Origin: Mobula hypostoma
Lineage: Eukaryota
Reading direction: 5' to 3'
Assembly: GCF_963921235.1 (NCBI RefSeq)
Contig: NC_086108.1
Span: 77,068,001-77,132,000 of the forward strand
DNA: 64,000 nucleotides
The translations under genes were made by a program, and so were the position numbers. The notes under the pieces were generated by a model. The model searched no databases. It had not been told where the DNA came from and saw only the letters and a program-made list of their open reading frames with translations. This document shows positions 431-60,281 of the stretch, in pieces; within the stretch, counting starts at the first letter, position 1, and the number at the start of each line of letters is the position of its first letter.

Positions 431-643
431 GATTATCAGTCATTCATTTATACTCCAATGCAAATGAGCTTGTCTTTAATCATTAAACAATACTTTCATC
501 ATGGGAATGAAATTAACATGTATATAATTTCTTAGATAAAAAGAAATGCACTGTTTGTTTTTACTAAACCTCAAATCTTGAGGAAGTTTAATCTTAAATG
601 TGGCCTTAAGTATATAAAGGCCAAGCATTCAAAGGGCACACCC

Positions 644-742
644 CAATTAACAGCACTGATGATGACTCCTTGTATGGTGATGAAACGTTTGCAATTAACA
701 GCACTGATGATGACTCCTTGTATGGTGATGAAACGTTTGCAA
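644..742 (+). repeat. Perfect 48-bp tandem duplication; each unit holds a hammerhead-like core (probable PLE terminal region)
   Basis: caattaacagcactgatgatgactccttgtatggtgatgaaacgtttg at 644-691 and 692-739. Each unit reads gca-CTGATGA...GAAA-cg-TT-tgc. Confidence 0.85.
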
Positions 743-1173
743 GTAAATTGCCAAGATCTGAGAACCACTCAATCCAACCAGTTGTATATCTCTTTGCATC
801 TTCTGTAGGTGATTTTCCAACCTGGCTTTATAAGATCAATGCACATAAGTCGCAATTTCCCATGTTATCTATCATGAATGGAAGTTCTAAATAGCAAATA
901 TCCTTGAAATAATACTTGTAGCCGCCTTTGAGTAGCAGTCATCCTGCCTAAAATGACGCATTTATTCTGTCCTTTCAGATAGTCTTTCATGCTGGTTAAT
1001 ATCTAAACTCCATACTTTCCCAACCATGTAAGCTCCTTTAGTTTATATAAAGCACTTGTTTGGCACCCTGCACAGATTCATTTTGATGTACTAAACAGTG
1101 CCTTGAAAAAGTAACACACATCAAAGTTGCTGGTGGACGCAGCAGGCCAGGCAGCATCTCTAGGAAGAGGTAC

Positions 1174-1209
1174 AGTCGACGTTTCAGGCCGAGACCCTTC
1201 GTCAGGACT
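1174..1209 (-). ncRNA. Minimal type-I hammerhead ribozyme motif in the PLE terminal region
   Basis: Minus strand reads AGUC-CUGACGA-AGG GUCUCGG CCU-GAAA-CG-UC-GACU: stem I AGUC/GACU, intact core, stem II, palindromic stem III (ACGU), GUC cleavage triplet. Confidence 0.85.
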
Positions 1210-1507
1210 AACTGAAGGAAAAGTTAGTAAGAGATTTGAAAGTGGGAGGGGGAGGGGGAAGGGGAGATCCAAAATGATAGGAGAAGACAGGAGGGGGAGG
1301 GATGGAGCCAAGAGCTGGACAGGTGATTGACAAAGGGGATATGAGAGGATCATGGGACAGGAGGTCCAGGGAGAAAGACAAAGGGGGGGAACCCAGAGGA
1401 TGGGCAAGGGGTATAGTCAGAGGGACAGAAGGAGAAAAAGGAGAGTGAGAGAAAGAATGTGTGTATATAAATAAATAACGGATAGGGTATGAGGGGGAGG
1501 TGGGGCG

Positions 1508-2863
1508 TTAGCGGAAGTTAGAGAAGTCAGTGTTCATGCCATCAGGTTGGAAGCTACCCAGACGGAATATAAGGTGTTGTTCCTCCAACCTGAGTGTGGC
1601 TTCATCTTTACAGTAGAGGAGGCCGTGGATAGACATACCAGAATGGGAATGGGATGTGGAATTAAAATGTGTGGCCACTGGGAGATCCTGCTTTCTCTGG
1701 TGGACAGAGCATAGGTGTTCAGCAAAGCGGTCTTCCAGTCTGCGTCGGGTCTCGCCAATATATAGAAGGCCACATCGGGAGCACCAGACGCAGTATATCA
1801 CCCCAGCCGACTCAGGTGAAGTGTCGCCTCACCTGGAAGGACTGTCTGGGGACCTGAATGGTGGCAAGGGAGAAAGTGTAAGGGCATGCGTAGCACTTGT
1901 TCCGCTTACAAGGATAAGTGCCAGGAGGGAGATCAGTGGGGAGGGATGGGGGGGACGAATGGACAAGGGAGTTGCATAGGGAGCGATCCTTGCGGAAAGC
2001 AGAGTGGGGGGGGGAGGGAAAGATGTGCTTAGTGGTGGGATCCCGTTGGAGGTGGCAGAAGTTACGGAGAATATTATGTTGGACCCGGAGGCTGGTGGGG
2101 TGGTAGGTGAGGACCAGGGGAACCCTATTCCTAGTGGGGTGGCGGGAGGATGGAGTGAGAGCAGATGTGCGTGAAATGGGGGAGATGCGTTTGAGAGCAG
2201 AGTTGATGGTGGAGGAAGGGAAGCCCCTTTCTTTAAAAAAGGAGGACATCTCCCTCATCCTGGAATGAAAAGCCTCATCCTGAGAGCAGATGCGGCGAAG
2301 AAGGAGGAATTGCGAGAAGGGGATGGCATTTTTGCAAGAGGCAGGGTGGGAGGAGGAATAGTCCAGATAGCTGTGAGAGTCGGTAGGCTTATAGTAGACA
2401 TCAGTGAATAACCTGTCTCCAGAGATAGAGACGGAAAGATCTAGAAAGGGGAGGGAGGTGTCGGAAATGGACCAGATAAACTTGAGGGCAGGGTGAAAGT
2501 TGGAGGCAAAGTTAATAAAGTCAACGAGCTCAGCATGTGTGCAGGAAGCAGCGCCAATGCAGTCGTCGATGTAGCGAAGGAGAAGTGAGGGACAGATACC
2601 AGAATAGGTACGGAACATAGATTATTCCACAAAGCCAACAAAAAGGCAGGCATAGCTAGGACCCATACGGGTGCCCATAGCTACACCTTTAGTTTGGAGG
2701 AAGTGGGAGGAGCCAAAGGAGAAATTATTAAGAGTAAGGACTAATTCCGCTAGACGGAGCAGAGTGGTGGTAGAGGGGAACTGATTAGATCTGGAATCCA
2801 AAAAGAAGCGTAGAGCTTTGAGACCTTCCTGATGGGGGATGGAAGTATATCGGGACTGGACAT
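1508..2863 (-). pseudogene. PLE reverse transcriptase + GIY-YIG endonuclease, disrupted
   Basis: ORFs 2622-2957 (part), 1812-2618 and 1508-1801 join into one polyprotein. One in-frame TAA at 2622-2624 and one frameshift near 1812. Confidence 0.92.
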
Positions 2864-3212
2864 CCTTGAAAAGTACTTGGCTCCCACAACCATTTTCCCA
2901 TTGTCTAAATTTAAAATATATTAAAGTATGATTATTTTGAGCTAATCTACAAAACATTTGATTTGGTATGATGCATAAAGGGAAATTCCAAAGCTTGTCA
3001 ACAATCTTCTAAGAATTAAAAGCCAAAATTCTGAGGCTGAAAAAGTATTAATTCGCTTTGCTATACTAATTTTCCTCAGGTACAATATTGTATATTACCT
3101 TACCAACTCAACCAATTTGTTGAATTAGAAAACAGGAGGATGACCTGAGCAAGTACCCCCTTCGCTCTGTAAGGTCCAATAGTATGGTAGATTTTGAACA
3201 GATCAAACCAAA

Positions 3213-4330
3213 ATGAAGACAAAAGAACATTCAAGGCACGTCAGGGAAATGATAATAGAGAAGCACAATTCTGGGGAAGTGTACAAGACTATCTCAAAGG
3301 CACTGAGTGTACGTTGGAGCTCAGTGCAGTCCATCATGAAAAGGTGTGAAACCACAGCCACTCTAACCCATGCTAAGTTGAGCATCGAGCTAGCAACTTG
3401 GTCTCGTAAAACACTCAAACGCTAAAGAAACAGGAAGGTTGCCACCTGATGCGCCTGAAGGCATGGGGAAGAACTATGAACACAGCCACGCTGCCTAGGT
3501 CAGGCCACCTCTCTAAACATAGTTGCTGGAGAAGAGTGGAGTGGCATATGTAAGGGAGGCTACTGTGACAGCAACAGTCACTCTGAGTGAGCAGCAGATG
3601 CCAATGGCTGCAACTGGAGGTGAAGTTCAAGACCTCAGAATCTCTTAAGGCCTTGCGCAAATAGGGTATTTATGAAAGAATGGCAAGTAAGAAGACCGAG
3701 CTAAAAAAGAAAGCATATCCTTGCCTGTAAAGACTTTGCCAAGTGTCTCTTAGAAGAGATTGTAAAGATGTGGAAGAAGACCTTGTGGTTGGATGAGACT
3801 TTTTGGCCTCAACACTACGTGGTACGTGTGTTGTAAATCTAACACTGCGCAACCACTAGGTAATACCATCCGTATGGTGGAGGTTGCACCATGCTATAGG
3901 GAGGCTTTTCAGCATCAGGGACTGGAAATCTGGTTGATTTCCATCATCAGATGAATGCTGCTAAATAGAGAGAGATCCTGGATTAAATAAAGACCTGCTA
4001 GCCTCTGCCAGAAAGTTTAAACTGAGGAGGAAGTTAGTTTTTCAGCAGGACGATGACTCAAAGCACACTGGGAGAGCAACCATGGAGTGGCTTCAAATGA
4101 AGAAAATTGATGTCCTTGAATGGCCCAGTCAGAGTCCTGACTTTAACCTGATGGAACATCCCTGGCAAGACCTCAAAATTGCTGTCTACTGCCACTCCCC
4201 AACTAACCTGGCATAGCTTGAGCAGTTTTGCAAGGAGGAATTAGCAAATCTTGCTCCATCATGTTCTGCAAAACTAATAGATACATCCAAAAAAAAACTA
4301 TAATAGTAGCTGCAAGAGGTTGTTCAACTA
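3213..4330 (+). pseudogene. Tc1 transposase remnant
   Basis: N-terminus MKTKEHSRHVREMIIEKHNSGEVYKTISKAL. Catalytic segment FQQD-(34 aa)-E contains WPSQSPDFNLME near 4040-4160. Multiple frameshifts. Confidence 0.9.
3362..3474 (+). mobile_element. Short RTE-related SINE fragment inside the Tc1 transposase
   Basis: Flanked by imperfect duplication tgaaaccacagccac / tgaacacagccac. Internal gagctagcaac...gtaaaac resembles the element at 45775-46197. Confidence 0.6.
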
Positions 4331-4654
4331 ATTACTGAGCAAAGGGGGATGAGTAGTTTTGAACTGCTGACATTTCAGGTTTTGAATTTTTAGTTTTTCA
4401 TGCTTTACTATTTCCAGTTTTTTTGGCTCTACTGTATGTGGGGTGGAGGAGAGGAGCATGTAATTCACAAAGAAAAGTTCAGTGAAATGAATCAGAATCC
4501 CTGGTTGTAATACTCATTAATGTGAACCAAAAGTTGGAGGCTGAATACTTTTACAAGGCACTGTATGCTCAAGTTCTCTCTTGTCTGCCCCGTAATTAGA
4601 TCCTTACTGCAGAGAGAAAAATATCACAGGTATGTTTCTGGGTTGGGAGCCCAA

Positions 4655-4980
4655 GTTATAAGTTATATGAAAAGACTGGATAGGCTAGGGTTTTTCCCCC
4701 TCAAAGCATAATAGGCTGGTGGGTGATTTTTTTAAGACCTTATAAAATCATGAGGGGTGTAGATAAAGTGAATAGTCACAGTCCTTTTCCCAGAGTAGGG
4801 GATTCTAAAACCAGATGGCATAGATTTTAGTCTGAGAGAGGAAAGATTTAAAGGAGATGTGAGGTGCTTATTTTTTACACAGAGGGTCGTGGGTATATGA
4901 AATGAGGTGCCAGAGGAAATAGTGACGGGTGCAGTTACCACATTTAAATAAAACATTTGGACTGGTACATGGATAGGAAA
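4655..4980 (+). mobile_element. CR1 LINE 3' fragment
   Basis: Similar to the CR1 ORF2 C-terminus at 21350-21680 (tataaaatcatgaggggtgtagata...ttttacacagagggt). Confidence 0.8.
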
Positions 4981-7900
4981 CACCTTCTGATGATGTTAAT
5001 GGTCAAACTATTTGTAGAAATTATTTGTAGTACATGCAAATAATTTCTAGATTTTCTTGGAATATGAAAGATCATACATCTTTGCCTTAAATCCAGTAGT
5101 CTCTAAGAAAACACTAAATTGGAAGAAAACAATACTAATGCAAAGTACTATACAGCTCCACCCCCCCCCCCCCCCCATTTTGTGTGTTTAATGAGATTTG
5201 GTAGCAAGGTTTATCATAACAGATCTCTTTTTGTTCTGTCAACTCCAGTGATAGCAATGGCTGGGAGGAAACATGCATTTTGAACTAATTTAATTGAAAG
5301 CAGCGAAGGATGACAGTTTAGGCTGTGAACCGGCATGAAAACCAAAGCATATCCTGAAATAATTTGTTTCTTTTTCAAATTATCATGATATGAAAATGTA
5401 TACTGACAATTATTTACAGAAAAGAACTCCAAATGCCTCTTGCTTGAAGTGATAATGTGCAGAAGAATGATCAGAAGGAGAAATGAAAAATATCCGGTTT
5501 GTTCTTTCCTAAGTGTTGTAACCTGGAGAAAATTTGAAATTATGGCATTTTTCACCATTCTAGGAGTTAAAACAAATGTAAAAACTCAGTGGTGATGTCT
5601 AAGGATTCAATGGCCAATAAGCATATTTCAAATCAATGTCAAAGGAGGAGAAGTAAGAAATTATTAATAGTTGATATTCAATGTTTAATTCTAAGTACTT
5701 CTTTTATTGCAGGGTGCCAAAAAGCTGTGTCCACAGTGCAACACAATCACATCCCCTGGAGATCTCAGGCGTGTCTATTTGTGAAGAAGTAGGATATGGA
5801 AGAGAGGCCACAGTTATCCTGAGGTCTAGTTAGACACAATGCCTCGCAGCAGGAAGAGGACCATGGACATTTGTGGGGTAGCACCAAAAAAAGTGTACAA
5901 ATATTCCATTTTTGTTTTTCTCTTAAATGTTTGGAAGAAGAGAGGCAACCCATCCAGGAGGAAAACTTGGTAATCCTGTTAGTTGTACTTTATAAAAAAA
6001 AAGGATCCCCAATACCCATCCGAGTTTTATCAGATGATTGATGCTCTGTGCTTATACACAAGCTCCTCCCTAATTCTGGTTCTGGAAGCTACGTCTGCTA
6101 GAAGACATTCTGGGCTGTACATTGTGAATGGACCTGTACTGTGTTCTATTGTGGTGTTATAGTGACAAAAAAAGATGAAGCACATGTAATATAAATTATG
6201 TATGTTTACACCATTGATTGTGTATAAATGGAATAGACTTATGAACAGTGCATACTAATAAGTCCTTAATAATTTTGAGAGAAAAAAAGAAAAGCGATAC
6301 GCATTAAACTTTCAGTAATTTTTACCCGACTGCCTAAGATTGAAGTATCTGGAGCTGTTGGTTAAAAATGAATCTGGTTTAATGAATAATTTGTGGTGTA
6401 TATTTCTCATTCAGAGTAAAGGAACAGCTTTGGTAATGGCTGTAATAATACCCATAACTTAAATGCTAAATGATGTAGACAAGTTGGCTTGTCTTAGTTA
6501 TAACAAATGGGCTGCTTGTACTAGAAGCCTGACCCATTTTAAATATCAGGCGGCCGCAGCAACAGTCCACTGAGGGAAAAATAGGCTGAGCCCCATGTAG
6601 CGGCCACAGTCCACTCCCTGAACTGTAAGCTGTGTTTGTTCTTGTGGACCAGCGTTGTGCTGTGTGTCTCAGTTGTACCAGAATATGTAACCAGTTATAA
6701 TGTTTGTTCTTCATGTGAAAATTCCTGGAATATACTCAAGAATTTGAAGGTAGATTTTGAAAGGGATGCAGAGCTTTTGTGATTCGTGGTTGCCTGCAAC
6801 AATTTGGCATCACTGCCCCTCTCAAACATGGTAACTGAATTGGCTTCATCCACTGTTTCTGAAAATCTTTCCAGTGTTACCAATTGTTAAAGTTTGTACA
6901 GCCCATCATTATACGTCTCCCAGTTTTAGTGTTGTGTCTTGTTAATAAGGTGGTTAGACTTTGGTTCCTAATTCTCTTCTGTATCACATTTATGCTACAT
7001 TCTGGGACGATCACAAAAACGTGCAGCTTGTAATTTCATATAAAATGCTTGGCTCCTAAGGAACCAATCATAAAACAAGTGGAGCCATTAAAATCCACTC
7101 AATTCTTTACAGAAACACTTGTGGGCTATGACAACCCACAGGTCTAAAAAGAGACAAAAATATTACTGATTTATTGTAGAAAATGACCTTTGATGTAAAA
7201 GGAATCTCCTGGCCAGAGAGGGCTATATGATAAAATTTAAATGTAACAACCGTTTTGACGTTGGTTGGACATAGTTGCAATTCCTTACAATTTTAGTTCC
7301 TTTTTTTTCTCTTTAATGACCAGTTGCTGTTTTGATGTTTCCAGACATCCCATAAACGCTGGACTTTTTTTTTAAACAACTATTGCCACAGTTCATGTAA
7401 TATGGCTTTAATGAACAAAGCTTGAAATATCCATTAACACACTGGCATTTGCTAATAAAATATTCAGAGTCCTTGCAAAATAAATTGTGGTTGTCTGTGC
7501 CAGTACAGAAGCAAATTATTTAATTATAAGGTATTTTCTGGTTTGCACTCTGTGTGTTGTTTATTCTGAGGAATTAAAAATCATGGGGTCTATTTTAAAC
7601 AATTACAAACAGATATTAGACTATTGTTTGCCTAAAAATACTAACAAGTGTCAAATCTGGACATTCCATGGCATAGAATTGTAAATAACCATTTAAATTT
7701 GGGTGGTATTTTGAGCAATCAAACAAGATAAAATTCTCTTTGATTGTTAAATGCTGAGGGTATGAAGTTAAATAACAGCAGTAGTGTTGAGCTAGAAACT
7801 CCATATGAAACTGCTGTTAAAACTGATAGCAATGTACAACCTACCAGACAACCCACCTGATCCTCATTGATGGCGTTATCAAGGTTTGTGAATGCAAATA

Positions 7901-10900
7901 CTGAAGAAGAAAGAAGTGCAATCTTCACAATGGGTTTGTGATGCCATTTATTTTGTGAAACACATAGATTATGCCTAGTTTTATTCATTGTCATTGTTTC
8001 TCCTTACTATAGCCCAAAATAGTGAGCTTTATCGGGGGAAGCAGCAAATGGGTTATTCGAGTAGTTTAAAAATAATAGAAGTAGCATTCTTGGAATGGTA
8101 GTGATGACTTGGAAAGAAGAACAATTCATAACTACCCATGAATGAGCTAAATTAACAACAATAAATTGGCAGCATCGTCAAGTAATTTTCATTTAGGTTT
8201 TTTGACAAGTGTTTGGGCCTTTAGGCTCATAACATTTGCTGTTTGTTTTTGCTAAATGAAAATGCTGCCTCATAAGTTTCTTTCATTCCATTTCATAAGG
8301 TACTACAAATGAAGATATTCATGAGGCAAAATAAATAACAGTAAGAAATGCTGCTTTTCATGTCCTCCATTGAGTTCCTTTCATGCAAAACCTTGTCCTT
8401 TTATTATTTCCATAATCTGTTTTACACAGATTTTTGTGAATGATTCACTAATGAGAATTATGGCCAGATGTTTGAATACTCTTTCCAGTGATACTTGAGA
8501 ATCGGGTGTCTGCCCACAGATTTTTATTTTCTTTTACCTTTCTGCACTATTCCTTTGAAACTATTGATGAGGAGCTATGTGAAAGTAACATTGCAACTAG
8601 TCCTAAGATTTCTCCTCCATCCGTGCAATGAAGAATCTTGCACTATTTTTCAGTCCCTGTTCTAGCCAGAGCCAGTATGAAAGCAAGAACTTATCAAGTA
8701 AAGAAAGTCATCCTTATCATCCAGTTTTCTTTTAATCCCTGTTTTAGACAGATAAAGCAGAAGTGTTGCTTCGCCATTTTTCAAATTTGTTGAAGATGGA
8801 ATACAAGTTGACAGAATGAAAATGGTTATATAATTTTCTGTATGTAACTTTCTAGTTTCAGAATATGTGTTGTGAACATCCACAAGTTAATTTAATCATC
8901 TGGTGTTTGTTGCATATAAGTTGGTTATTGTACTCAATTCTTACAGACTATGCTGATTTTGTTTACCACCTTGATTGAACTTCTCAGTGTTAGTAAGGGG
9001 CTGAAAGTTGGATAAAGTTGAAAGGAGCTGATATACTAAGAAAAGATATATTAGTTGGAGCTTTTTTTCCTTCCTTGTTTGGTTTTCTTTATTGAAACTC
9101 TTCTCTGCAAGTGTTTCTTTCCATCTTTTATGATGGTGCATCTGTTTGTGGTGTCACTGCTAACAAAATCGCATTAAGCTTTCTGCTATTTAAGGTAGAA
9201 TTGTCCTTTACAATTTAAGACACTTACGTATAACATCCAATTCAGGCTGCAGATCTAATGGCACTGCTGAATTCCATTGCGTTTCAAAAATCTTTTCTAG
9301 CCAGGCGTGTTATGATGCTTGTCGAATCTGTCAAAATGCTTTCCTCATTGGTCTGCAATCAGCATTCAGAAGACTTGATTCCAATGATCATGAAGAAGGA
9401 TTTAACTGTATTAATTCCTCATTAGCACCATATTTCTGAAGAACTGCAAAATTTCCCAATCCATTCAGTACCAGACTGGTAAACAATCAGGCGAAGTGAG
9501 TCATTTTAAGAGGCAGATGTCCCTTGGAGAAGCATTGGCAAACCTGATGTGGAGTTACTTGTCAAGATACTGATATGCCTTAATCTGCACTTGCAGCTAT
9601 TTCCTCCCTTCTCTTTAACAATCCCCCATCCCAAAAAAGTGGGCAAAGTGAAATAAATTCAATCCCACTTTTGTGCCAACTACTCAAGAGCATGACTAAA
9701 TCAAAATGCCAGGTTATACGGATGCAGAATAAAACAGTCCCCACACTACCTCTCATCGTTTGCTCTTCCCTGGATGTACATGACATTTAATAAAGGTACA
9801 TTCATGTGGGGCTATGTTTCATAACAAGCATCTTCTGCAGTTCTTCTAACAGTGAAATGAACTGGTGACATTAGTGTGTGTAGACAATAATTATTTTCCA
9901 TAAAGTTGATTTAATAATTCTTATGTCCAGAATAATGGCAAAAGAACTTCAATCAGAGTATGGCATGGTATGTTGAGTTTGGATTGAGATGAGATGGTTC
10001 TACCACAAGAGTAATATTCTCTGCCGAGATGTGATCTCTACTCCTCTGTCCCATTTTGTTTTGGATCCACAGGCAACATCACATGACAAAAGTCAAGTAT
10101 CCATTAACTATAATTTGGTTTGCTAACACAATTTGGAAAATATGTATTTTTTCCTATCTTGTCGCATCGCCCTGAAGCAAATGGTTCATGGCGTGGGAAT
10201 TTGGTTACTATGGGGAGGTTTAGGGTGGAAGCTGGGATTGCTGAACTAATTATGTGCTCAGGTTGGGGTTTCATACATTTTCCTAATGACATACAAGGTC
10301 ATTCAGTCCTTTGAATCTATGCCAGCTTTTGGAGCAATTCCATCACTCCCACTCCCCCACTTTCCTGCAGCCCAGATTGCCTCTCCATATTAATGCATTG
10401 ATTTTCCAGTGCACCAACAATAATATCTTTACTTTGATTCCTGTTTAATATTGAAATTCTGCTTGAGTCCCAATTAAATGCTGGAACCTTAGCGAGAGGT
10501 GACTTCATGAAGCTCAGGATGTAACAGCATGTGCGAGGATTCTGAAGATCTAACAATAGAAATGAACTGTGGAATGAGCAAAATAAGGCCAAAGATGTAA
10601 CAAGTTAGAACTGCATTTTTATGAGTGCTTCCTTCCTTCCCGCCTCCCCCACTGAACATTTAAACAGCAGGACTGCATTGTGGGTAGAAAAGGATACTGT
10701 AAGGTTGAGTGATTTAACCACCTTCTGTCTGGTTTGCAAATGTAAAATTGATGCATTCTGTGCTTGACGTTGGCATAGACCAAAAGCCTTTTATTGTAGA
10801 ATTTGCGCTTTGTGTCTCCGTGTGAAGCCTGTACCTTAAAGTATTGGATTTCTGAGTCTTGCTGTTGAAATACTTGTAAAGAAAATAATAAATTTTTTGT

Positions 10901-12102: not shown

Positions 12103-12402
12103 TTGTGTGACCCTACCAGGGATAGGGTTCCTCTTGTCCTCACCTACCACCCTACCAGCCTCCATGTCCAGCAGATAGTTCTCCGCAACTTCTGCCATCT
12201 CAAATGGGATCCCACCACCAAGCACATCTTTCCCTCACCCACTTTCTGTTCCCTACATGACTCCTTTTCCCTTTCATCCCTCACCACTGATCTCCCTCCT
12301 GGCATTTATCCTTCCAAGTGGAACAAGTGCTACACCTGTCCGGACGCCTCATCCCTCACTACCATTCAGGGCCCCAAACAGTCCTTCCAGGTGAGGTGAC
12401 AC
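12103..12402 (+). mobile_element. PLE internal fragment
   Basis: PTRDRVPLVLTYHPTSLHVQQIVLRNFCHLKWDPTTKHIFPS closely matches the PLE ORF 1812-2618. Confidence 0.9.
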
Positions 12403-12460
12403 CTGGAAAGACTGTAAGCAATTTTGGACCTGGGGAATGAAAGGGTTAAAGTATTTGGAG

Positions 12461-12685
12461 CAATATGTACAAACTGCTGGAGTAACTCAAAGGCCAGGGA
12501 GCATCTATGGTAAAGGGTAAACAGTCGACGTTTTGGGCTGAGACCCTTCACCAGTCCCGATGAAGGGTCTCAGCTTGAAATGGCTACTGTTTACTCTTTT
12601 ACATAGATGCTCCCTGATCTGCTGAGTTTCTCAGCATTTTGTGTGTATTGTTTTGACTACCAGCATCTGCAGTTCTTTTGTTTGT
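12461..12685. mobile_element. Fold-back (inverted pair) of PLE terminal units with two decayed HHR motifs
   Basis: 12461-12551 is the approximate reverse complement of ~12558-12650 (gagacccttca / tgaagggtctc; gggagcatctatg / catagatgctccc). Confidence 0.85.
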
Positions 12686-14345: not shown

Positions 14346-15963
14346 ATAAGACCTTAAGATATTGGAGCAGAATTAAGCCATTTGGCCCATTGAGTCTGCT
14401 CTGCCATTTCATCATGGCTGATTCAATTTTCTTCTCAGCCCCAATTTCATGCCTTCTTCCTGTATCCCTTCATGCCCTGACCAATCAAGAATCTATCAAC
14501 TTCTGCCTAAAATATACATAAAGACTTGGCCCCCACAGTTGCCTGTAGCAAAGAATTCCACAGGTTCACCACTGACTGGCTAAAGAAATTCCTTCTCATC
14601 TTCATTCGAAATAGATGCCCCTCTATTCTGAGACTGCGCCTCTGGTATTAGACTCTCCCACTTCTCCACATCCACTCTATTGAGGCCTTTCACCATTTGA
14701 TAGGTTTCAATGAGGTCACCCCTCATTCATCTGAATTCCAGTGAATATAGGCCTAGAGCCATCAAACGCTCTTCATATGACAGGCTATTCAATCCTGGAA
14801 TAATTTTTGTGAACCTCTTTTGAACCCTCTCCAGTTTCAGCACATCCTTTCGAAGATAAGGGGCCAAAATCTGCTCAGAATACTTCAAGTGAGGCCTCAC
14901 CAGTGCTTTATAAAGTCTCAACTTTACATCCTTGCTTTTACATATATTCCAGCTCTTTTGAAATGAATGCTAACATTTCATTTGCCTTCCTCACCATAGA
15001 CTCAACCTGCAAATTAACCTTTAGAGTATCCTGCCACAAGGACTCCCAAGTCCCTTTGCACCTTATTTTTCTTTGCATTTTCGCTCCATTTGGAAAATAG
15101 TCAACCCTCTCATTTCTTTTACCAAAGTGTATGTCTATACACTTCCCAACACTGTATTCCATCTGCTGCTTCTTTGCCCATTCTTCTAATCTGTCTAAGT
15201 TCTTCCGTAGCCTCTCTACTTTTTCAAAAATACCTGCCCCTCCACCTATCTTCATATCATCTGCAAACTTTTCAACAAAGCCATCAATTCCATCATCAAA
15301 ATCATTGACATATAACATAAAAAGAATCAATCCCAACACAGACCCCTGTAGAACAGCACAAGTCATCAGCAGCCAACCAGAAAAGGCTCCCTTTATTCCC
15401 ACTCTTTGCCTCCTGCCAATCAACTACATAAGCCCTGATGAAGAGTCTGAACCCGAAATGTCGACTGCGGTCTTTTCCATAGATGCTGCCTGGCCTGATG
15501 AGTTCCTCCAGCATTTTGTGTGTGTGGTGCTTGGCCTATAGTTTCCTTTCTTCTGCCTTTCTCACTTCTTGAAGAGTGGAGTGACATTTGCAATTTTCCA
15601 ATCTTCCAGAACCGTTCCTGAATCTAGTGATTCATGAAAGATCATTACTAATGCCTCTGCATCTCTTCAGTCACCCTGCTTCAGAACTCTGGGGTGTACA
15701 CCATCTGGTCCAAGTAACTTCAGGCCTTTCCGTTTCCCAAGAACCTTTTCTCTAGTTATGGCAACTTCACACACTTAATGACCCCTGACACCTGGAACTT
15801 CTACCATTCTGCTAGTGTCTTCCACCATGAAGACTGATGCAATATACTTATTCAGTTTGTCTGCCATTTCATTGTTCCCCACTACTCCCTCTCCAGCATT
15901 GTTTTCCTGTGGTCCGATATCCAATCTCGCCTCTCTTTTACACTTTATGTAACCAAAGAAACT
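14346..15963 (-). mobile_element. CR1 LINE fragment (RT and C-terminus), internally deleted
   Basis: ORFs with QGSVLG, KFADD and LYKALVRPHLKY. 3' tail at 14346-14420. Confidence 0.92.
15431..15532 (+). mobile_element. PLE terminal unit beginning at an HHR motif, inside CR1
   Basis: agcc-ctgatga-agagtctgaaccc-gaaa-tg-tc-gact followed by the PLE tail catagatgctgcctggcctg...cagcattttgtgtgtgt. Confidence 0.8.
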
Positions 15964-20448: not shown

Positions 20449-21120
20449 AACACATTTCTTCAATCTTTGTGACACTGTGGTTGAATTTTTACTCAAAGTC
20501 CACAAGAGTTTGGGAAACATGATTAAATTTCTATGTGGAGATGTGGCACACCTAGTCAATCTGTATGAATAAAGAGAATATTCTAGATGTGAAACTATAA
20601 GGTGAAAATTTCAATTTAATCCAGGCAAAAAGTGTAGTGTCCAGTTTTATTGAAAAATTGGAAATGTGTAAGCAAAACATTTGGAGAAGAATGTTCTCAC
20701 AATTACCCTGCAGCTAAAGTATGGAACTCTCTTTCACAGATGGTGATTTGCAAGAGTACTGCTTACACCTACAGTCCCTGAAGAAGGATTTTCAGAATCG
20801 ATTAAGGACTTGAACGATCTAGAAATTCTGCACTTCTTTGCAAGGTGGAAGAACAGGAACAGAGCTTGCAAGAAGAAATGATCAAAATTCAGAATAATGA
20901 AGAAGCAAAAATGCTTTTCAAGATTGTTGGCTTTTGTGGTATGTGGCTGCGCTGTCATATGAGGTTTTCTGATCTTTGGAGAAGAGCCAAACTGCTCTTC
21001 ATTGCATTTCCATCCTCCTACCTTACTGAAAGGGCTTTAGTGCAGTGAACCACATACTCACAAAAAACAAAAACCACTTGGACATTGTTACACATGGGGA
21101 CTTATGTCTTTTGCTGTCAC

Positions 21121-21795
21121 TAAAAGTGGCGTCACAGGTAGATAGGGTCGTAAAGAGAGTTTTTGGTACATTGGCCTTTATTAATCAAAGTATTGAGTAT
21201 AAGAGCTGGAATGTTATGATGAGGTTGTATAAGGCATTGGTGAGGCCGAATCTGGAGTATTGTGTTCAGTTTTGGTCACCAAATTACAGGAGGGATATAA
21301 ATAAGGTTGAAAGGGTACAGAGAAGGTTTACAAGGTTGTTGCCGGGACTTGAGAAACTCAGTTACAGAGAAAGGTTGAATAGGTTAGGACTTTATTCCCT
21401 GGAGCGTAGAAGAATGAGGGGAGATTTGATAGAGGTATATAAAATTATGACCGGTATAGATAGAGTGAATGCAAGCAGGCTTTTTCCACTGAGGCAAGGG
21501 GAGAAAAAAACCAGAGGACATGGGTTAAGGGTGAGGGGGGAAAAGTTTAAAGGGAACATTAGTGGGGGCTTCTTCACACAGAGAGTGGTGGGAGAATGGA
21601 ATGAGCTGCCAGATGAGGTGGTAAACGTGGGTTCTTTTTTAACATTTAAGAATAAATTGGACAGATACATGGATGGGAGGTGTATGGAGGGATATGGTCT
21701 GTGTGCAGGTCAGTGGGACTAGGCAGAAAATGGTTCGGCACAGCCAAGAAGGGCCAAAAGGCCTGTTTCTGTGCTGTAGTTTCTATGGTTCTATG
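21121..21795 (+). mobile_element. Young CR1 3' fragment nested in hAT
   Basis: Open ORF2 C-terminus (LYKALVRPNLEYCVQFWSP...GFFTQRVVGEWNELP). Tail ttctatggttctatg. gtcac duplicated at 21116-21120 and 21796-21800. Confidence 0.93.
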
Positions 21796-22095
21796 GTCAC
21801 AACTTGAACTCTTGCTAAAACCCATCAAGCTCAAGGATCACATTGATATCAAAGCTGCTGTACAGTGCACAGGTACTGTTTTTTTCTATGCTTAAAGACA
21901 AATCAGAATTTAAAGCAGAATCATTTTTCTCATGTTAGCATATGGAAGACATACATTTACACTATGGGGGGGTGCCAGAAAGTATATTGTGTCTAAGAGG
22001 GGTGTTGGCAAGTGTAAGGATGCTTTAGGGGGGCATTGGCAAATATTAAAGTGCTTTATGGGGGTGTTGGGCTAAAAAAGGGGTTGGGAAACACT

Positions 22096-22150
22096 CGAAA
22101 CGTCGACTCATCGTTTCCACTGATAGCCCGACCTGCTGAGTTCATCCAGT
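22096..22150 (+). mobile_element. PLE terminal fragment carrying the 3' half of the HHR
   Basis: cgaaacgtcgact...gacctgctgagttcatccag, directly abutting the hAT right TIR. Confidence 0.6.
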
Positions 22151-22859
22151 GTACTGTAAGGGAAATACTGGTGTAGAGAAATGTGGACTGAGTCCTGAGA
22201 AGTAGGATTAACTTAAATATACTTCTGGGTTGACATGGACCACAATAGGTCAAAGGGTCTTTATCCATGTTCTACAATTCTATGATTCTTTGTGGCCTGG
22301 GATGGTGAAACTTGTGTCCAATGCAGAGGTGCTTCAAATCATAAGGCATAGGTTTAAGGTAAAGAGTGCGAAGGCTGTGGAAGGGAAGGGGAAGGAAATC
22401 TGAGGAAGCCTCCCGCCCCCACCACTATACCAGACAGTGATGCATCCAGTTAGAATGCTCTCCACAAAACACCTGTTTTGAGTGGATAAAATTTATAGAA
22501 TTTGGGCACCCTGTTTAAAGGGCTGGTGGAGGCAGAGACGCTGACAACATTTAAGAAGAATCTGAACAAGCACTTGAATTGCCAAGGCATTCAGTATAAA
22601 AGCTATGGGGCCACTGCTGCTACATGGGAAGGTTATAATTGTGTACTTGATGATCAAGAGCCTGTTTCTCTAAGACGCTGTGACTCTGTGGTTCCCACCA
22701 TGGCTGCATTAGCCACACATCCTGAGTGGAAGCACATCATTCTAGATCTCAAGAGGTTTCGTAAGACTATCCTTCCATCCTTCTTTCTGTGTTATACCAA
22801 TATAGGAAAGGCCACCATTTTAATTCTTGATCAATATGAAAACTGGTGATCTTTATTAT

Positions 22860-33509: not shown

Positions 33510-33587
33510 GACCATAAAACCATAAGATATAGGAGCAGAAGTAGGCCATTTGGCCCATCGAGTCTGCTCCATCATTTCATCATGGCT
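33510..33587 (-). mobile_element. CR1 3' tail
   Basis: accataagatataggagcagaagtaggccatttggcccatcgagtctgctcc. Confidence 0.75.
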
Positions 33588-35874
33588 GCGATGTCGCAGG
33601 CATCAGCACACCCGAAATACAATGGGGTAGCCTCGTCCTGGGATAACCGCCTTAATAATCACAGTGTCTCCCCTGCCAGGTAAATATGAAGGATTTTTAA
33701 CTCAAGCAAATTTTTAGAAGTAAAAAGTTTGCTTAATTTATCTCAACAAAATCATGAGCAATTTACATTCATTGGATGCTCCATTCAACTTCAACGTTTT
33801 TGTGTATTCTTTGGTAAAGAGAGACCTATCAATTTTATTTACCATCTGTCATTCTGGATGAGCACAGTTGCATCCTAATGAATAGTTAACTAGTTCGCCA
33901 AGGAATGATATGTTTCAGTCTAGATTAAATTTGGATTTTAGCTGTGAATAAAATTGTTTATTAGAAACCTTTTTCATCATGGTCTATGTAATAATTAGTG
34001 AAAAAATCTTTAGTAAAAAAAATACAGAATGAGCTCATTAAAACTCTGCAAAATTATTGATCGGAGATCCATGATTATGAAGATAGAGCATGGCTCCATG
34101 CAGTTTGGACCAGAGGATAGGAAACCCATAAAAAATATCAAAAATTACAATATACAGTGCCATATAATTTCTCAGTAAGGGACATATCACTACATAAGGA
34201 AGAAAGCCCATAAATGGTCTCAAATGTGCATCCAGCTAGAGGAGGAGATGGCACAGTGCAAGCAGTGCTCAGCTGTGCATGAGATCTGGCAAAAATTTAC
34301 TAGAACATTTCCCAATTGAAAGGCAATATCCCATCACCCATTTCCAGGCTACAATGTTCGTATATTCAAATAAATCAAATCTGTTATACAATCCCGTTCT
34401 TTCAGCAAAAGGAGACATGTAAACCTTAATTGCTAAAGCATGGGTAGTAACAAAACTCTTAACAAATCCATTACCAAATATCTCCATGTTTACTTATAGT
34501 TTCTTTATTTGTTTATCACCATTCTTATTCTTGTGCCAGAACTTTTCATTGAATGTAGATATATTTTCTAACTAGTAAATCTGTGCCCCAAAATGGTTGC
34601 AAAGTTAAGATAATACATCCAGGAGCACTGGCTATGTGAGGTGGGACTTGCCTCAGTGATGCTCAGTTTGGGTCCTGCTCCCAATTTCCATCTCCCTTGA
34701 GCAGTATGACCATACGTAGGCAAGGCAAGAAGTTCCCTTTTGTACCGAAACTAGGAGTTTGGAATGAAACAATCACAGTCAGTAGAAATGGCTGTGTTTG
34801 CCTTTCTTTCACAGTTGAAATCCAGTTGTGCTAATGATCTCCTTCAGCAATGGAAATCCTAAACTTGAGGGATTTGAGTGAATCTAAGCATAAGGCTATG
34901 ACTCTTAACTCCTCACTGTGCAAAAATCTGCAGCATTACCCTTAGTAATTCATCCTGAATACCTTCTTGTGCCATTTATTGATTGTTTATCATTGAACTT
35001 CCTTTCGCTACTGAGGCTGGAGATGACTTTGGCACTCACTGCCTGTCTCATTCGCTTTGTTAGACTTGCAGATGCATAGCATTGAAGTGAGTTATACTTT
35101 CAGTTTTGAAAAAGGGTCTTGGACCCAAAGTATCTATTTCTCTTTCCATTCATGGTATCTAAACCTGCTAAAAATTTTCAGTGTTTTCTGTTTTTATTTA
35201 TGCTTTAGTATTTGTCCTTTAAAGTCATTAATTATTTCCTGGCTAGTCACTGAGCACGTATTAGTAAGCCACCCCAACTATCAGCGCAACCTCCCTTTGT
35301 TTATCTGTAGTGCCTTTCACGGTATTTTCATTTCAATTGATTGCTCTTTTCAACCTTACCTCTGCCAACACCTTCTCCTAATTTTTAGAGAACCCTTGGA
35401 CGTTGGTCTCAGTGGATGCACATTCCTTCACCTTCTCTTCTCATTGTCTTCTTCCTTTGTCACTTTGTCATACTAGGATTATTTGTGAACATCCAAGATC
35501 CATTAGTTTTTGATCCAGGTAGCAAAAGCAGACTTCCCTATCTCCCAACAGAAGGGAACCATTCAAAGTTCAAAGTAAATTTACAAACGTTTGTATTATC
35601 CAAGTATGTATATGTCACTATATACTACCCTGAGATTCATTTTCTTGTAGGCTTTAAGAGTAGAGAGATTCCCCAATATACATGCTAAATTAAGAGTTTA
35701 CCTTGACATATGGATGTTGACATACGAAATATCTAAGCAGGCAACATACTACTTTATCTTAAATCCTATTTTGATATAAAATCTATTTATATCTAAAATG
35801 TCAAGAAAAATCCTCAACAATTTTTGAATGTTGCACTGATAAAATGGAAGAGTATATTGTCCCACCACTCCAGA

Positions 35875-43764: not shown

Positions 43765-44563
43765 TAATGTAAAATACACATAATGCTGGAGGAACTCGAT
43801 GGAAATGAATAAACAGTCGACGTTTTGGACCGAGACCCTTCATCAGGACTGGTAGAAAGGGATGAGAAGTCAGATAAGAGGGTGGGGGGAAGGGGAAGAA
43901 GAAGTACAAGGTAGTAGGTGATAAGTGAAATCAGGAGAGGGTAAGGGGTGAAGTAAAGAGCTAGGAAGTTGATTGGTGAAAGAGATACAGGGCTGGTGAA
44001 GGGGGAATCTGATAGGAGAGGACAGAAGGCCATGGAAGAAAGGGAAGGGGGAGGAGCTCCAGAGGGAGGTGATGGGCAGGTAGGGAGTTAAGGTTGGAGA
44101 GGGAAATGGGAATGGGGAATGGTGAAAGGGTGGAGGGGGGCTTCAATTACCGGAAGTTCAAGAAATCGATGTTCATGACATCAGGTTGGAGGCTACCCAG
44201 ACGGAATATAAGGTGTTGATCCTGCAACCTGAGTGTGGCCTCATTGCAGCAGTAGAGGAGGCCATGGACTGACATATTGGAATGGGAATGGGAAGTAGAA
44301 TTGAAGTGGGTGGTCAGTGGGAGATTCTGCTTTCTCCGGTGGACGAAACGTAAGTGCTCATCAAAGCAGTCTGCCAATTTGCTTTGGGTCTCACCAGTAT
44401 ACAGGAGGCCACACCAGGAGCACCAAATACAGTAGATGACCCCAACAGGCTTGTAGGTGAAGTGTCGCCTCCCATGGACAGACTGTTTGGGGCCCTGAAG
44501 CGTAGTGAGGGAGGAGGTGTAGGAACAGGTGTGCCATTTGCTCTGCTTGCAAGGGTAAGTGCC
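43765..44563 (-). mobile_element. PLE 3' fragment (GIY-YIG + terminal region with mutated HHR)
   Basis: ORF 44147-44377 (HFNSTSHSHSNMSVHGLLYC...LIFRLGSLQPD). HHR at 43814-43851 has GAAA changed to AAAA. Confidence 0.9.
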
Positions 44564-47173: not shown

Positions 47174-47416
47174 TACCACAAACACGAGAAAATTTCTAGA
47201 TGCTGGAAAACCAAAGCAACACACACAAAACGCTGGAGGAACTCAGCAGGCCAGGCAGCATCTACCGTACAGCATAAACAGTTGGTATTTTGGGCCGAGA
47301 CCCTTCATCAGGACTGGTAAAGTCCTGATTCCAGTCCTGATGAAGTTGACTGTTTACTCTTTTCCATAGATGCTACCTGGCCTGCTGAGTTCCTCCAGTA
47401 GTTTGTGTATGTTGCG
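47174..47416. mobile_element. Fold-back PLE terminal-unit insertion with TSD
   Basis: Inverted arms 47216-47317 and 47331-47415. TSD ctgatattagg at 47163-47173 and 47417-47427. Confidence 0.88.
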
Positions 47417-49104: not shown

Positions 49105-49911
49105 AACACAAGAAATTCTGCAGATGCTGGAAATACAAAAACAACACTTACAAATTGCTGGAGGAACTCAGCAGGTTAGACAGCATCTATGGAAATGAAT
49201 GAACAGTTGACATTTCAGGCTGATACTGTTCCTCGGGACTGGAAAAGAAGGGAGACGATGCCAGAATAAAAAGGTGGGGAGAAGGGAATGAGGACAAGCT
49301 GGAAGGTGCTAGGTAAAGCCAGGTGGATTGGAAAGGTAAAGTGTTGGAGAAGAAGGAATCTGATAGGAGAGGAGAGGAGAGGAGAGGAGAGTGAACCATA
49401 GGAGAAGGGAAGGAGGATGGGACCCAAGGGTTAGTAATAGGCAGGCGAGAAGAAGTAAAATGTCAGACTGGGGAATAGAGGAAGGAGGAATATTTTTTAC
49501 CAGAGGGAGAGATCAATATTCATACCATCAGGCTGGAGGCTACCCAGGCGGTTGATCCTCCAACGCATCGTGGCACAAAAGGAGGCCATGGACTGACCTG
49601 TCAGAATGGGAATTGGAATAGAAATTAAAATGTTTGGAACTGGGAAGTTCCACTTTATTTGGATGGAGTGGGGGTGCTCAACAAAGCAGTCCCCCAATTT
49701 ATGATGGATCTCATCAGTGTAGAAGGAGGCGACATCGGGAGCACTGGATGCAATAGATGACCCCAGTAGGTAGCAGGTAAAGTGTTGCTTCACCTGGACG
49801 GACTGTTTGTGGCCCCGAATAGAGGTGAGGGAGGAGATGTATGGCCAGGTGTAGCTCTTTGGCTGCTTGCAGAGATAAGTGCCAGGGGGGAGATTAGTGG
49901 GGAGGGATGAA
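49105..49911 (-). mobile_element. PLE 3' fragment, older
   Basis: SSLPTNLPPGTYLCK...RLGSLQPDGMNID. Decayed HHR at 49204-49241. Confidence 0.85.
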
Positions 49912-50591: not shown

Positions 50592-51208
50592 AAACAACAG
50601 GAATTCTGCAGATGCTGGAAATTCAAGCAACACACATCAAAGTTGCTGGTGAACGCAGCAGGCCAGGCAGCATCTCTAGGAAGAGGTGCAGTCGATGTTT
50701 CAGGCCGAGACCCTTCGTCAGGACTAACTAAAGGAAGAGTGAATAAGGGATTTGAAAGTTGGAGGGGGAGGGGGAGATCCAAAATGATAGGAGAAGACAG
50801 GAGGGGGAGGGATGGAGCCAAGAGCTGGACAGGTGATTGGCAAAAGGGATACGAGAGGATCATGGGACAGGAGGTCCGGGAAGAAAGACGGGGGGGGGGG
50901 GAACCAGAGGATGGGCAAGGGGTATATTCAGAGGGACAGAGGGAGAAAAAGGAGAGTGAGCGAAAGAATGTGTGTATAAAAATAAGTAACAGATGGGGTA
51001 CGAGGGGGAGGTGGGGCATTAGCGGAAGTTAGAGAAGTCGATGTTCATGCCATCGGGTTGGAGGCCTACCCAGACAGAATATAAGGTGTTGTTCCTCCAA
51101 CCTGAGTGTGGCTTCATCTTTACAGTAGAGGAGGCCGTGGATAGACATGTCAGAATGGGAATGGGATGTGGAATTAAAATGTGTGGCCACTGGAAGGTCC
51201 TGCTTCTT
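50592..51208 (-). mobile_element. PLE 3' fragment, nearly identical to 1114-1695
   Basis: Colinear high identity with the first PLE. HHR at 50690-50725 differs at stem III (gaaa-ca-tc). Confidence 0.93.
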
Positions 51209-58043: not shown

Positions 58044-60281
58044 GGGGACAGTGACCACCACTCCCTGGCCTTTAACATTATCATGGAAAAGGATAGAATC
58101 AGAGAGGACAGGAAAATTTCTAATTGGGGAAAGGCAAATTATGAGGCTATAAGGCTAGAAATTGCGGGTGTGAATTGGGATGATGTTTTTGCAGGGATAT
58201 GTCTATGGACATGTGGTCGATGTTTAGGGATCTCTTGCAGGATGTTAGGGATAAATTTGTCCTGGTGAAGAAGATACAGAATGGGAGGGTGAAGGAACCA
58301 TGGGTGACAACTGAGGTGGAGAATCTAGTCAGGTGGAAGAAGGCAGCATACATTAGGTTTAGGAAGCAAGGATCAGATGGGTCTATTGAGAAATATAGGG
58401 AAGCAAGAAAGGAGTTGAAGAAGGGCTGAGAAGAGCAAGAAGGGGGCATGAGAAGGCCTTGGTGAATAGGGTAAAGGAAAACCCCAAGGCATTCTTCAAT
58501 TATGTGAAGAGCAAAAGGATGACAGGAGTGAAGATAGGTCCGATTAGAGATAAAGATGGGAAGATGTTCCTGGAGGCTGTGGAAGTGAACGAGGTCCTCA
58601 ATGAACACTTCTCTTCGGTATTCACCAATGAGAGGGAACTTGATGTCAGTGAGGACAATATGAGTGAGGGTGATGTTCTGGAGCATGTTGATATTAAGGG
58701 AGAGGAGGTGTTGGAGTTGTTAAAATACATTAGGATGGATAAGTCCCCGGGGCCTGATGGAATATTCCCCAGGCTGCTCCACAAGGCGAGGGAAGAGATT
58801 GCTGAGCCTCTGGCTAGGATCTTTATGTCCTCGTTGTCCACGGGAATGGTACCGGAGGATTGGAGGGAGGCGAATGTTCGTCCCTTGTTCAAAAAAGGTA
58901 GTAGAGATAGTCCAGGTAATTATAGACCAGTGAGCCTTACATCTGTGGTGAGAAAGCTGTTGGAAAAGATTCTTAGAGATAGGATCTATAGGCATTTAGA
59001 GAATCATGGTCTGATCAGGGACAGTCAGCATGGCTTTGTGAAGGACAGATCATGCCTAAAATGCCTGATAGAGTTCTTCGAGGAGGTGGCCAGGCATATA
59101 GATGAGGGTAGTGCAGTGAGTGTGACCTACATGGATTTTAGTAAGGTATTTGACAAGGTTCCACACGGTATGCTTATTCAGAAAGTTAGAAGGCATGGGA
59201 TCCAGGGAAGTTTGGCCAGGTGGATTCAGAATTGGCTTGCCTACAGAAGGCAGAGGGTGGTGGTGGAGGGAGTACATTCAGATTGGAGGATTGTGACTAG
59301 TGGTGTCCCACAAGGATCTGTTCTGGGACCTCTACTTTTCGTGATTTTTATTAACGACCTGGATGTGGGGGTAGAAGGGTGGGTTGGCAAGTTTGCAGAC
59401 GACACAAAGGTTGGTGGTGTTGTAGATAGTGTAGAGGATTGTTGAAGATTGCAGAGAGACATTGATAGGATGCAGAAGTGGGCTGAGAAGTGGCAGATGG
59501 AGTTCAACCCGGAGAAGTGTGAGGTGGTACACTTTGGAAGGACAAACTCCAAGGTAGAGTACAAAGTAAATGGCAGAATACTTGGAAGTGTGGAGGAGCA
59601 GAGGGATCTGGGGGTACATGTCCATAGATGCCTGAAAGTTGCCTCACAGGTGGATAGGGTAGTTAAGAAAGTTTATGGAGTGTTAGCTTTCATAAGTCGA
59701 GGGATAGAGTTTAAGAGTCGCGAGGTAATGATGCAGCTCTATAAAACTCTGGTTAGGCCACACTTGGAGTACTGTGTCCAGTTCTAGTCACCTCACTATA
59801 GGAAGGATATGGAAGCATCGGAAAGAGTACCGAGGAGATTTACCAGGATGCTGCCTGGTTTAGAGAGTATGCATTATGATCAGAGATTAAGGGAGCTAGA
59901 GCTTTACTCTCTGGAGAGAAGGAGGATGAGGGGAGACATGATAGAGGTATACAAGATATTAAGAGAAATAGATAGAGTGGATAGCCAGCATCTCTTCCCC
60001 AGTGCACCACTGCTCAATACAAGAGGACATGGCTTTAAGGTAAGGGGTGGGAAGTTCAAGGGGGATATTAGAGGAAGGTTTTTTACTCAGAGAGTGGTTG
60101 GTGCGTGGAATGCACTGCCTGAGTCAGTGGTGGAGACAGATATACTAGTGAAATTTAAGAGACTACTAGACAGGTATATGGAGGAATCTAATGTGGGGGC
60201 TTATATGGGAGACAGGGTTTAAGGGTCGGTACAACATTGTGGGCCGAAGGGGCTGTACTGTGCTGTACTGTTCTATGTTCT
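58044..60281 (+). mobile_element. CR1 LINE, 2.2 kb, 5'-truncated, young
   Basis: [44 protein letters not shown]; only a few stops or frameshifts. attg duplicated at 58040-58043 and 60282-60285. Confidence 0.95.

What the first reader, a model, noticed from the sequence alone, without database searches (positions are those of the whole stretch)
1174..1209. Intact minimal hammerhead ribozyme in a young Penelope copy
Seen: the minus (element-sense) strand reads AGUC CUGACGA AGGGUCUCGGCCU GAAA CG UC GACU, with all core nucleotides, a 4-bp stem I and a self-complementary stem III (ACGU). Predicted cleavage is after the C at 1178. Known: PLEs carry minimal type-I HHRs with palindromic stem III that work best as dimers (Cervera & de la Pena 2014). 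Inference: this is the processing signal of a recently active PLE family. It is the only fully canonical copy in the window and is invisible to ORF annotation.
Basis: partly seen in the sequence, partly recalled or inferred. Interest (0 to 1): 0.75.

Follow-up and report, generated by a model that had tools for sequence, protein, structure and literature searches.

The report
Ordinary Penelope hammerhead in broken retrotransposon
This is a real, intact copy of the tiny predicted self-cutting RNA motif that Penelope-type jumping genes are already known to carry, one of about 47,000 such copies in this genome, and here it sits in a broken element facing away from its host gene, so this copy is likely inert.

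Summary
Observation confirmed. Minus strand 1210-1173 holds a minimal type-I hammerhead: complete core, 5-bp stem I, 4-bp stem II, loopless palindromic ACGU stem III, and a predicted cut after C1178. It is not strictly canonical (extra A after A9, G10.1·U11.1), but both traits have published precedent. It lies at the 3' end of a 5'-truncated Neptune-type Penelope-like element (1114-2863) with a stop, a frameshift and a target-site duplication. The element is antisense in the last intron of an RNF220-like gene. A 34-nt pattern of the motif has 46,857 exact matches in the genome. The family is young (copies 0.4% apart, an open 1,036-aa ORF), but this copy is 4.1% from the nearest of 34. The core is more conserved than the upstream flank, and stem I covaries between families. 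The 'processing signal' reading is not shown: 0 of 100 sampled copies start at the cut site and 29 start at the motif's 5' edge, so copied RNAs were mostly uncut. This scan noted the same pile-up before on other DNA. Known class; low interest.

The parts
1173..1210 (-). Minimal type-I hammerhead motif: stem I 1210-1206/1177-1173; CUGACGA 1205-1199; extra A 1198; stem II 1197-1194/1189-1186, loop CUCG; GAAA 1185-1182; C1181 G1180 U1179; C17 = 1178, predicted cut between 1178 and 1177
   Evidence: fits the published min-HHR consensus
1114..2863 (-). 5'-truncated Neptune-type Penelope-like element without the optional ~35-nt 3' tail
   Evidence: homology to other copies ends near 1110-1114 and 2865; tail in 40 of 100 sampled copies
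1511..2863 (-). Broken 3' part of the ORF (RT end, CX4CxxC linker, GIY-YIG-type endonuclease), with one in-frame stop (2622-2624) and a frameshift near 1812
   Evidence: 88-90% identical to the L053 ORF; L053 hits RVT_1 (E 3.9e-5) and GIY-YIG (E 0.02), both below Pfam cut-offs; Atlas neighbours have RT + GIY-YIG
1114..1510 (-). 3' untranslated region, copied as the pseudo-LTR in partial tandems; there the cut site lies about 138 nt upstream of the ORF's first ATG
   Evidence: L057, L059, L063, L068; distance counted
1139..1160 (-). Block downstream of the hammerhead that is also shared between families; function unknown
   Evidence: it was used as the anchor, so its conservation there is partly circular
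1101..1113 (+). Left copy of the target-site duplication
   Evidence: differs from the right copy by one A in an A-run
2864..2875 (+). Right copy of the target-site duplication
5713..5784 (+). Last coding exon of the host gene (RNF220-like); the element lies antisense in the intron before it
   Evidence: translation; preceding RING exon about 11.5 kb left of the window; PF15926 exons on + strand at C50:76.86-77.00 Mb. Assigning the last two exons to RNF220 is from recall; Pfam gave no hit on the 23-aa piece
50689..50726 (-). Second copy of the same family; G16.2 is A, so the ACGU palindrome is lost

Best explanation
The motif is a minimal type-I hammerhead carried at the 3' end of a truncated, frameshifted Neptune-type Penelope-like retrotransposon, and this copy is likely a passive fossil because it lies antisense to its host intron with no intact partner nearby. 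In parent elements arranged as partial tandems the same motif sits about 138 nt upstream of the ORF start (shown). There it likely cuts slowly, and only when its ACGU pairs with a second copy or the element's protein holds the fold (inferred from PMC4209133 and PMC11167929). The RNA copied into new insertions is mostly uncut (inferred from where copies begin). The cut therefore likely trims or retires a fraction of transcripts rather than defining the template's end; that last step is a guess of about even odds.
For: Fit to the published consensus, including the extra nucleotide after A9 and members with G·U at 10.1-11.1. Element anatomy: RT + linker zinc finger + GIY-YIG, tail, inverted pairs, target-site duplication. 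Signs of selection on parent lineages: core mismatches 3 of 480 vs 96 of 2,256 in the upstream flank in 48 copies (Fisher p 1e-5); 34 of 36 motif positions are the same between two families whose flanks differ; an older family has U-A for the inner C-G pair of stem I (of 100 listed matches, 58 U-A, 17 U·G, 16 C-G, 9 C·A; p 4e-4); an unrelated family keeps the core with different stems. Uncut templates: starts at 1171-1179 0 of 100, at 1199-1218 29 of 100. Low activity in cis: two identical intact copies lie sense within introns of the same host gene, and folds sequester the core.
Against: No cleavage was measured. In the first 30 flank-anchored copies the core was no better conserved than flanks (8 of 289 vs 28 of 759). 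In the 48-copy set, core vs non-core hammerhead positions was not significant (p 0.2). The upstream flank is pyrimidine-rich and indel-prone, so its higher rate may be mutational. The stem-I counts reflect few independent events, and some changes fall on CpG. One copy (L185) starts within 3 nt of the cut and could be a cut-site start. Antisense transcription over this copy was not excluded.
Confidence: 0.75

Rival explanations
1. One reading: the hammerhead is the obligatory processing signal. Dimeric cleavage releases unit-length (possibly circular) RNA that is the template for insertion.
For: Conserved core and stem covariation; tandem copies supply a partner; proposed in PMC4209133.
Against: 0 of 100 copies start at the cut site, and copies end about 63 nt or about 100 nt past it, so templates spanned it uncut. 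PAc catalytic mutants still insert in vitro. A ligated circle would also span the site, so the circular form of this model is not excluded.
Confidence: 0.15
2. The cut, or the fold, serves translation: cutting about 138 nt before the ATG gives an uncapped RNA that would start cap-independent translation of the ORF.
For: Position in the 5' leader of tandem copies; type-I hammerhead cleavage drives cap-independent translation in fungal viruses (PMC13725137, abstract and passages).
Against: In Anolis Poseidon the cut lies 26 nt inside the ORF, so the geometry is not general. The viral ribozymes have a long helix III and act as monomers. Nothing tested here.
Confidence: 0.12
3. The motif is kept as a binding or folding site for the element's protein, and catalysis is vestigial in this lineage.
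For: The downstream block is about as conserved as the motif; G·U replaced G-C at 10.1-11.1 in most copies of the young family (C in 14 of 48); copy starts cluster at its 5' edge.
Against: The invariant positions are the catalytic ones, in three related families and one unrelated family; PAc cleavage is core-dependent and partly rescued by the C3G/G8C double mutant.
Confidence: 0.1
4. Chance match.
For: No Rfam hit; folding z-score -1.2.
Against: 1 hit in 300 simulated windows; 46,857 vs 0 control matches; fixed place in the element.
Confidence: 0.01

Closest known systems
Minimal hammerheads (min-HHR) in pLTRs of metazoan Penelope-like elements (Cervera and De la Pena 2014, PMC4209133)
   Same: CUGANGA + one extra nucleotide, GAAA, loopless palindromic stem III, short stem I, U-rich upstream flank, location in the pLTR, mass dispersal as single copies. 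The Acropora Neptune, Ixodes and Strongylocentrotus rows share CUGACGAA ... CGUC; the cichlid and Xenopus(1) rows share G·U at 10.1-11.1.
   Different: Stem II is short (4 bp, two G·U). Copy number is far higher (about 47,000 for one pattern vs about 4,000-9,000 in coelacanth and Xenopus, by other methods). No shark, skate, Callorhinchus or Leucoraja hit in supplementary file 2 (file 1 not searched).
Poseidon element of Anolis carolinensis, PAc (Frangieh et al. 2024, PMC11167929)
   Same: Hammerhead in the pLTR, two 3' ends that define an optional tail, no sign of ends at the cut site.
   Different: In PAc the ORF starts inside the hammerhead and the cut is 26 nt into the ORF; here the cut lies about 138 nt before the first ATG. 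This family has the Neptune/Nematis linker finger that Poseidon lacks.
Neptune-clade EN+ Penelope-like elements (Craig et al. 2021, PMC8557442; structure also in PMC3846280)
   Same: C-terminal GIY-YIG with two cysteines between the motif halves, CX2-5CxxC linker, 5' truncation, partial tandems, head-to-head inverted copies, 30-40 bp tail, target-site duplication.
   Different: Clade placement by RT tree not done; Neptune itself is reported as paraphyletic.

Membership tests
min-HHR of metazoan PLEs | Core boxes CUGANGA and GAAA, with UH at the cut site | tested here: met
min-HHR of metazoan PLEs | One unpaired nucleotide between A9 and 10.1 | tested here: met
   A1198; fold; consensus CUGANGAH
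min-HHR of metazoan PLEs | Helix II opened by G10.1 paired with 11.1 (C in the >80% consensus, U in some published members) | tested here: met
   G·U here; C in 14 of 48 family copies and in 5,457 exact genome matches; G·U precedent
min-HHR of metazoan PLEs | Helix III absent or palindromic (dimer-type) | tested here: met
   ACGU, no loop
min-HHR of metazoan PLEs | Type-I topology with a short helix I | tested here: met
   5 bp; covariation between families
min-HHR of metazoan PLEs | Located in the pLTR of a PLE | tested here: met
   copies at both ends of partial tandems L057, L059, L063, L068
min-HHR of metazoan PLEs | Self-cleavage as a dimer or with protein | not testable with these tools
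   no assay; only contig runs listed
Canonical type-I hammerhead (Rfam models) | Closed helix III and loop I/II contacts; match to an Rfam model | tested here: not met
   no hammerhead family at E<=5; not filed here
EN+ Penelope-like element, Neptune clade | [quoted passage not shown] | tested here: met
   (Pfam hits are below cut-offs; motifs visible in the translation)
EN+ Penelope-like element, Neptune clade | CX2-5CxxC linker between RT and EN (Neptune, Nematis; absent in Penelope/Poseidon) | tested here: met
   CX4CxxC in the window copy and in L053; definition
EN+ Penelope-like element, Neptune clade | pLTRs, inverted copies, optional 30-40 bp tail | tested here: met
EN+ Penelope-like element, Neptune clade | RT phylogeny with named Neptune references | not tested
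   no named reference set fetched
Non-LTR retrozyme | Tandem array of non-coding units, each with a hammerhead | tested here: not met
   single motif at the end of an ORF-bearing element; definition

The most novel reading that the evidence does not exclude
The genome records where the element's RNA begins. About a third of all copies start within a few bases of the hammerhead's 5' edge and almost none at its cut site. The element's RNA would then start just before the ribozyme and be reverse-transcribed uncut from an internal site about 100-140 nt in, making the hammerhead a 5'-leader switch (uncut RNA is the template; cut RNA goes to translation or decay) rather than a template-processing signal.
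Probability: 0.35. Interest if true: 0.5.

Novelty: new member of a known kind. Interest (0 to 1): 0.17.

Why it matters
The motif class and its place in Penelope-like elements have been in print since 2014, and this copy is one of tens of thousands, so the finding itself is ordinary. What remains open is why these elements keep a nearly inactive ribozyme. A family with about 90,000 well-preserved ends and near-intact tandems is good material for that question: breakpoints, intron orientation bias and a reconstituted assay can all be read against one sequence.

Tried and rejected
Rfam scan: no hammerhead family. Thermodynamic folding does not support the hammerhead form: as a 38-mer the core pairs GACG with CGUC, and in longer context stem I has probability 0.13 or less. 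That is expected for a dimer- or protein-dependent motif and is no evidence either way on function. RNA evidence: no RNA holder listed on record; all runs were contigs, which cannot show ends. Core-versus-flank test within one young family was inconclusive in the first 30 copies. A fully specified pattern for the oldest family found 0 matches; a looser one found 702. The same-strand copy 9 kb left of the window has a broken palindrome and was rejected as a dimer partner. The Lunse et al. dimer paper could not be read; it was seen only as a title in a reference list. Retrozyme reading rejected. Literature searches for shark or elasmobranch PLE hammerheads gave 1, 2 and 1 papers, none devoted to this by title or abstract start; a search on truncation or transcription start near the hammerhead gave none.

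Full report
Observation. The minus strand at 1210-1173 reads UAGUC CUGACGA A GGGU CUCG GCCU GAAA CGUC GACUG. In hammerhead numbering all core positions are present, C17 is window 1178, and the predicted cut falls between 1178 and 1177. Stem I is 5 bp with an outer U·G. Stem II is G·U, G-C, G-C, U·G with a CUCG loop. Stem III is ACGU with no loop, which can only pair with another copy. My descriptor gave 1 hit in the window and 1 hit in 300 simulated 64-kb sequences. A 34-nt pattern with four free positions has 46,857 exact matches in the 3.48-Gb genome and 0 for the reversed control. Of 10 related ends in the window only this one passes. Rfam finds no hammerhead at E<=5.

The carrier. Homology to other copies runs from about 1114 to 2865 on the minus strand, between two copies of a 12-13-bp target-site duplication. 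It is the 3' 1.75 kb of an element whose ORF is about 1,036 aa in L053. The window copy has one in-frame stop and one frameshift. [quoted passage not shown] Atlas neighbours are RT/GIY-YIG clusters. By the definitions in PMC8557442 (passages) this is Neptune-type; no tree was built. Partial tandems (L057, L059, L063, L068) carry the motif at both ends, with the upstream cut site about 138 nt before the first ATG. 40 of 100 sampled copies carry the optional ~35-nt tail; this copy does not. The host is a vertebrate; that it is a cartilaginous fish is my recollection of such repeats and was not tested.

Age. Among 34 copies chosen by RT similarity the closest pair differs by 0.4% and the median pair by 2.1%. 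The window copy is 4.1% from the nearest, and 30 of 1,751 letters occur in none of them. The family is recent; this copy is not one of the newest. Of 78 flank-anchored copies spanning the motif, 43 are intact.

Context. PF15926 (RNF220) exons lie on the + strand 68-211 kb left of the window, a RING-type exon 11.5 kb left, and a final exon at 5713-5784 (its assignment is recalled). The element is thus antisense in the last intron, and the host pre-mRNA carries the reverse complement. No intact same-strand partner lies in the window or in the 40 kb to its left. Two identical intact motifs lie on the + strand 3.9 and 24.6 kb left of the window, sense to the host gene. Their persistence suggests little cutting in cis (inference).

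I took the first 100 of 91,008 exact matches to a 32-nt flank pattern, all on one contig. In the first 30 the core was no better kept than flanks (8 of 289 vs 28 of 759). In the 48 of 100 that reach at least 70 nt upstream of the motif, non-CpG mismatches were 3 of 480 (core), 14 of 912 (other motif sites) and 96 of 2,256 (upstream flank, polymorphic columns removed); core vs flank p 1e-5, core vs other motif sites p 0.2. The flank is low-complexity, so part of this may be mutational. Dead copies decay neutrally, so the comparison between families matters more. The majority motifs of the young family (148 ends) and an older group (119 ends) differ at 2 of 36 positions, N7 and 11.1, while the flanks on both sides differ. 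A still older group has U-A in place of the inner C-G pair of stem I. In the first 100 of 702 matches to a pattern that leaves this pair free, I counted by eye 58 U-A, 17 U·G, 16 C-G and 9 C·A (p 4e-4, but few independent events). An unrelated family, present at 653-740, keeps the core with different stems (23 motif rows from 25 loci). A block downstream of the motif is similarly conserved, so the hammerhead is not the only constrained part.

Where copies begin. Of the 100 copies, 0 start at 1171-1179, 7 at 1180-1198, 29 at 1199-1218, 10 at 1219-1238, 31 between 1239 and 1720, and 23 extend beyond 600 nt. The rate per base is 0.0025 over 1171-1198 and 0.0134 over 1199-1226 (p 2e-7). Caveats: 23 of the 37 starts at 1199-1230 are inverted junctions, where two arms of one insertion both count and breakpoints blur; 14 have unique flanks, 7 of them with a duplication of 10 nt or more; one copy starts within 3 nt of the cut. 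If cut RNA were the usual template, starts should pile up at 1177. They do not. Earlier AI notes of this scan reported the same pile-up on other DNA; I tested it here after reading them.

Mechanism. Shown: the motif, its place, its conservation, the breakpoints. From the literature: single min-HHRs showed no cleavage and dimers low cleavage (PMC4209133, parts 1-2 of 4 and supplementary file 2 parts 1-2 of 3). The Anolis PAc hammerhead cuts only with the element's protein, is not needed for insertion in vitro, and leaves no RNA-seq ends (PMC11167929, parts 1-2 of 4). Inferred: in tandem parents this motif is a slow, dimer- or protein-gated cutter in the 5' leader; templates are mostly uncut; this solo antisense copy is inert. 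A translation role has a viral precedent (PMC13725137, abstract and passages) but is untested. Folding predicts inactive alternatives. Sequencing runs were contigs only and say nothing on ends.

Novelty. The class is known, including in fish Neptune elements. A 2026 preprint found hammerhead retrozymes in one chondrichthyan (part 1 of 5 and passages; its supplements could not be seen and may list this family). Searches found no paper devoted to this family or to the breakpoint pile-up; the Lunse et al. paper and repeat databases were not available. Also seen as passages: PMC6765202 and PMC3846280. Verdict: real, correctly identified, a new member of a known kind; interest 0.17.

Noticed in passing
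window 607-780 (+); motifs at 653-692 and 701-740: A short element of a second, sequence-unrelated family with a 48-nt tandem duplication, giving two adjacent minimal-hammerhead cores (3-bp stem I, damaged stem II), sense to the host intron. The family is dispersed, with inverted pairs; no link to an ORF was found in 25 loci.
   Followed up: partly
L230 and L232, 3.9 kb and 24.6 kb left of the window start (+): Two intact motifs identical to the finding, in sense orientation within RNF220-like introns.
   Followed up: partly
window 12468-12647 and 47219-47412: Head-to-head inverted pairs of short, older Penelope ends joined at the hammerhead's 5' edge.
   Followed up: partly
window 15397-15525, 22094-22152, 43774-43890, 49144-49283: Further decayed Penelope ends with damaged hammerheads; endonuclease remnants at 12112-12405, 44150-44563 and 49506-49907.
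   Followed up: partly
window 33582-33687 (-): U1 snRNA-like sequence lacking the 3' part (50.5 bits, under the gathering score), probably a pseudogene.
   Followed up: no
window 58399-59445 (+), 21030-21722 (+), 14938-15423 (-): LINE-type ORF fragments; the first hits RVT_1 at E 6e-27.
   Followed up: no
window 61592-62230 (+): ORF fragment with a Pfam ALKBH8_N hit (E 1.6e-10), probably another repeat.
   Followed up: no
window about 3190-4560: Looks by eye like a decayed Tc1/mariner transposon; recalled resemblance, not tested.
   Followed up: no
window 1220-1196 (-): In the young family the upstream flank can form a hairpin that takes up the CUGACGA box; a possible off-state or a coincidence.
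   Followed up: partly
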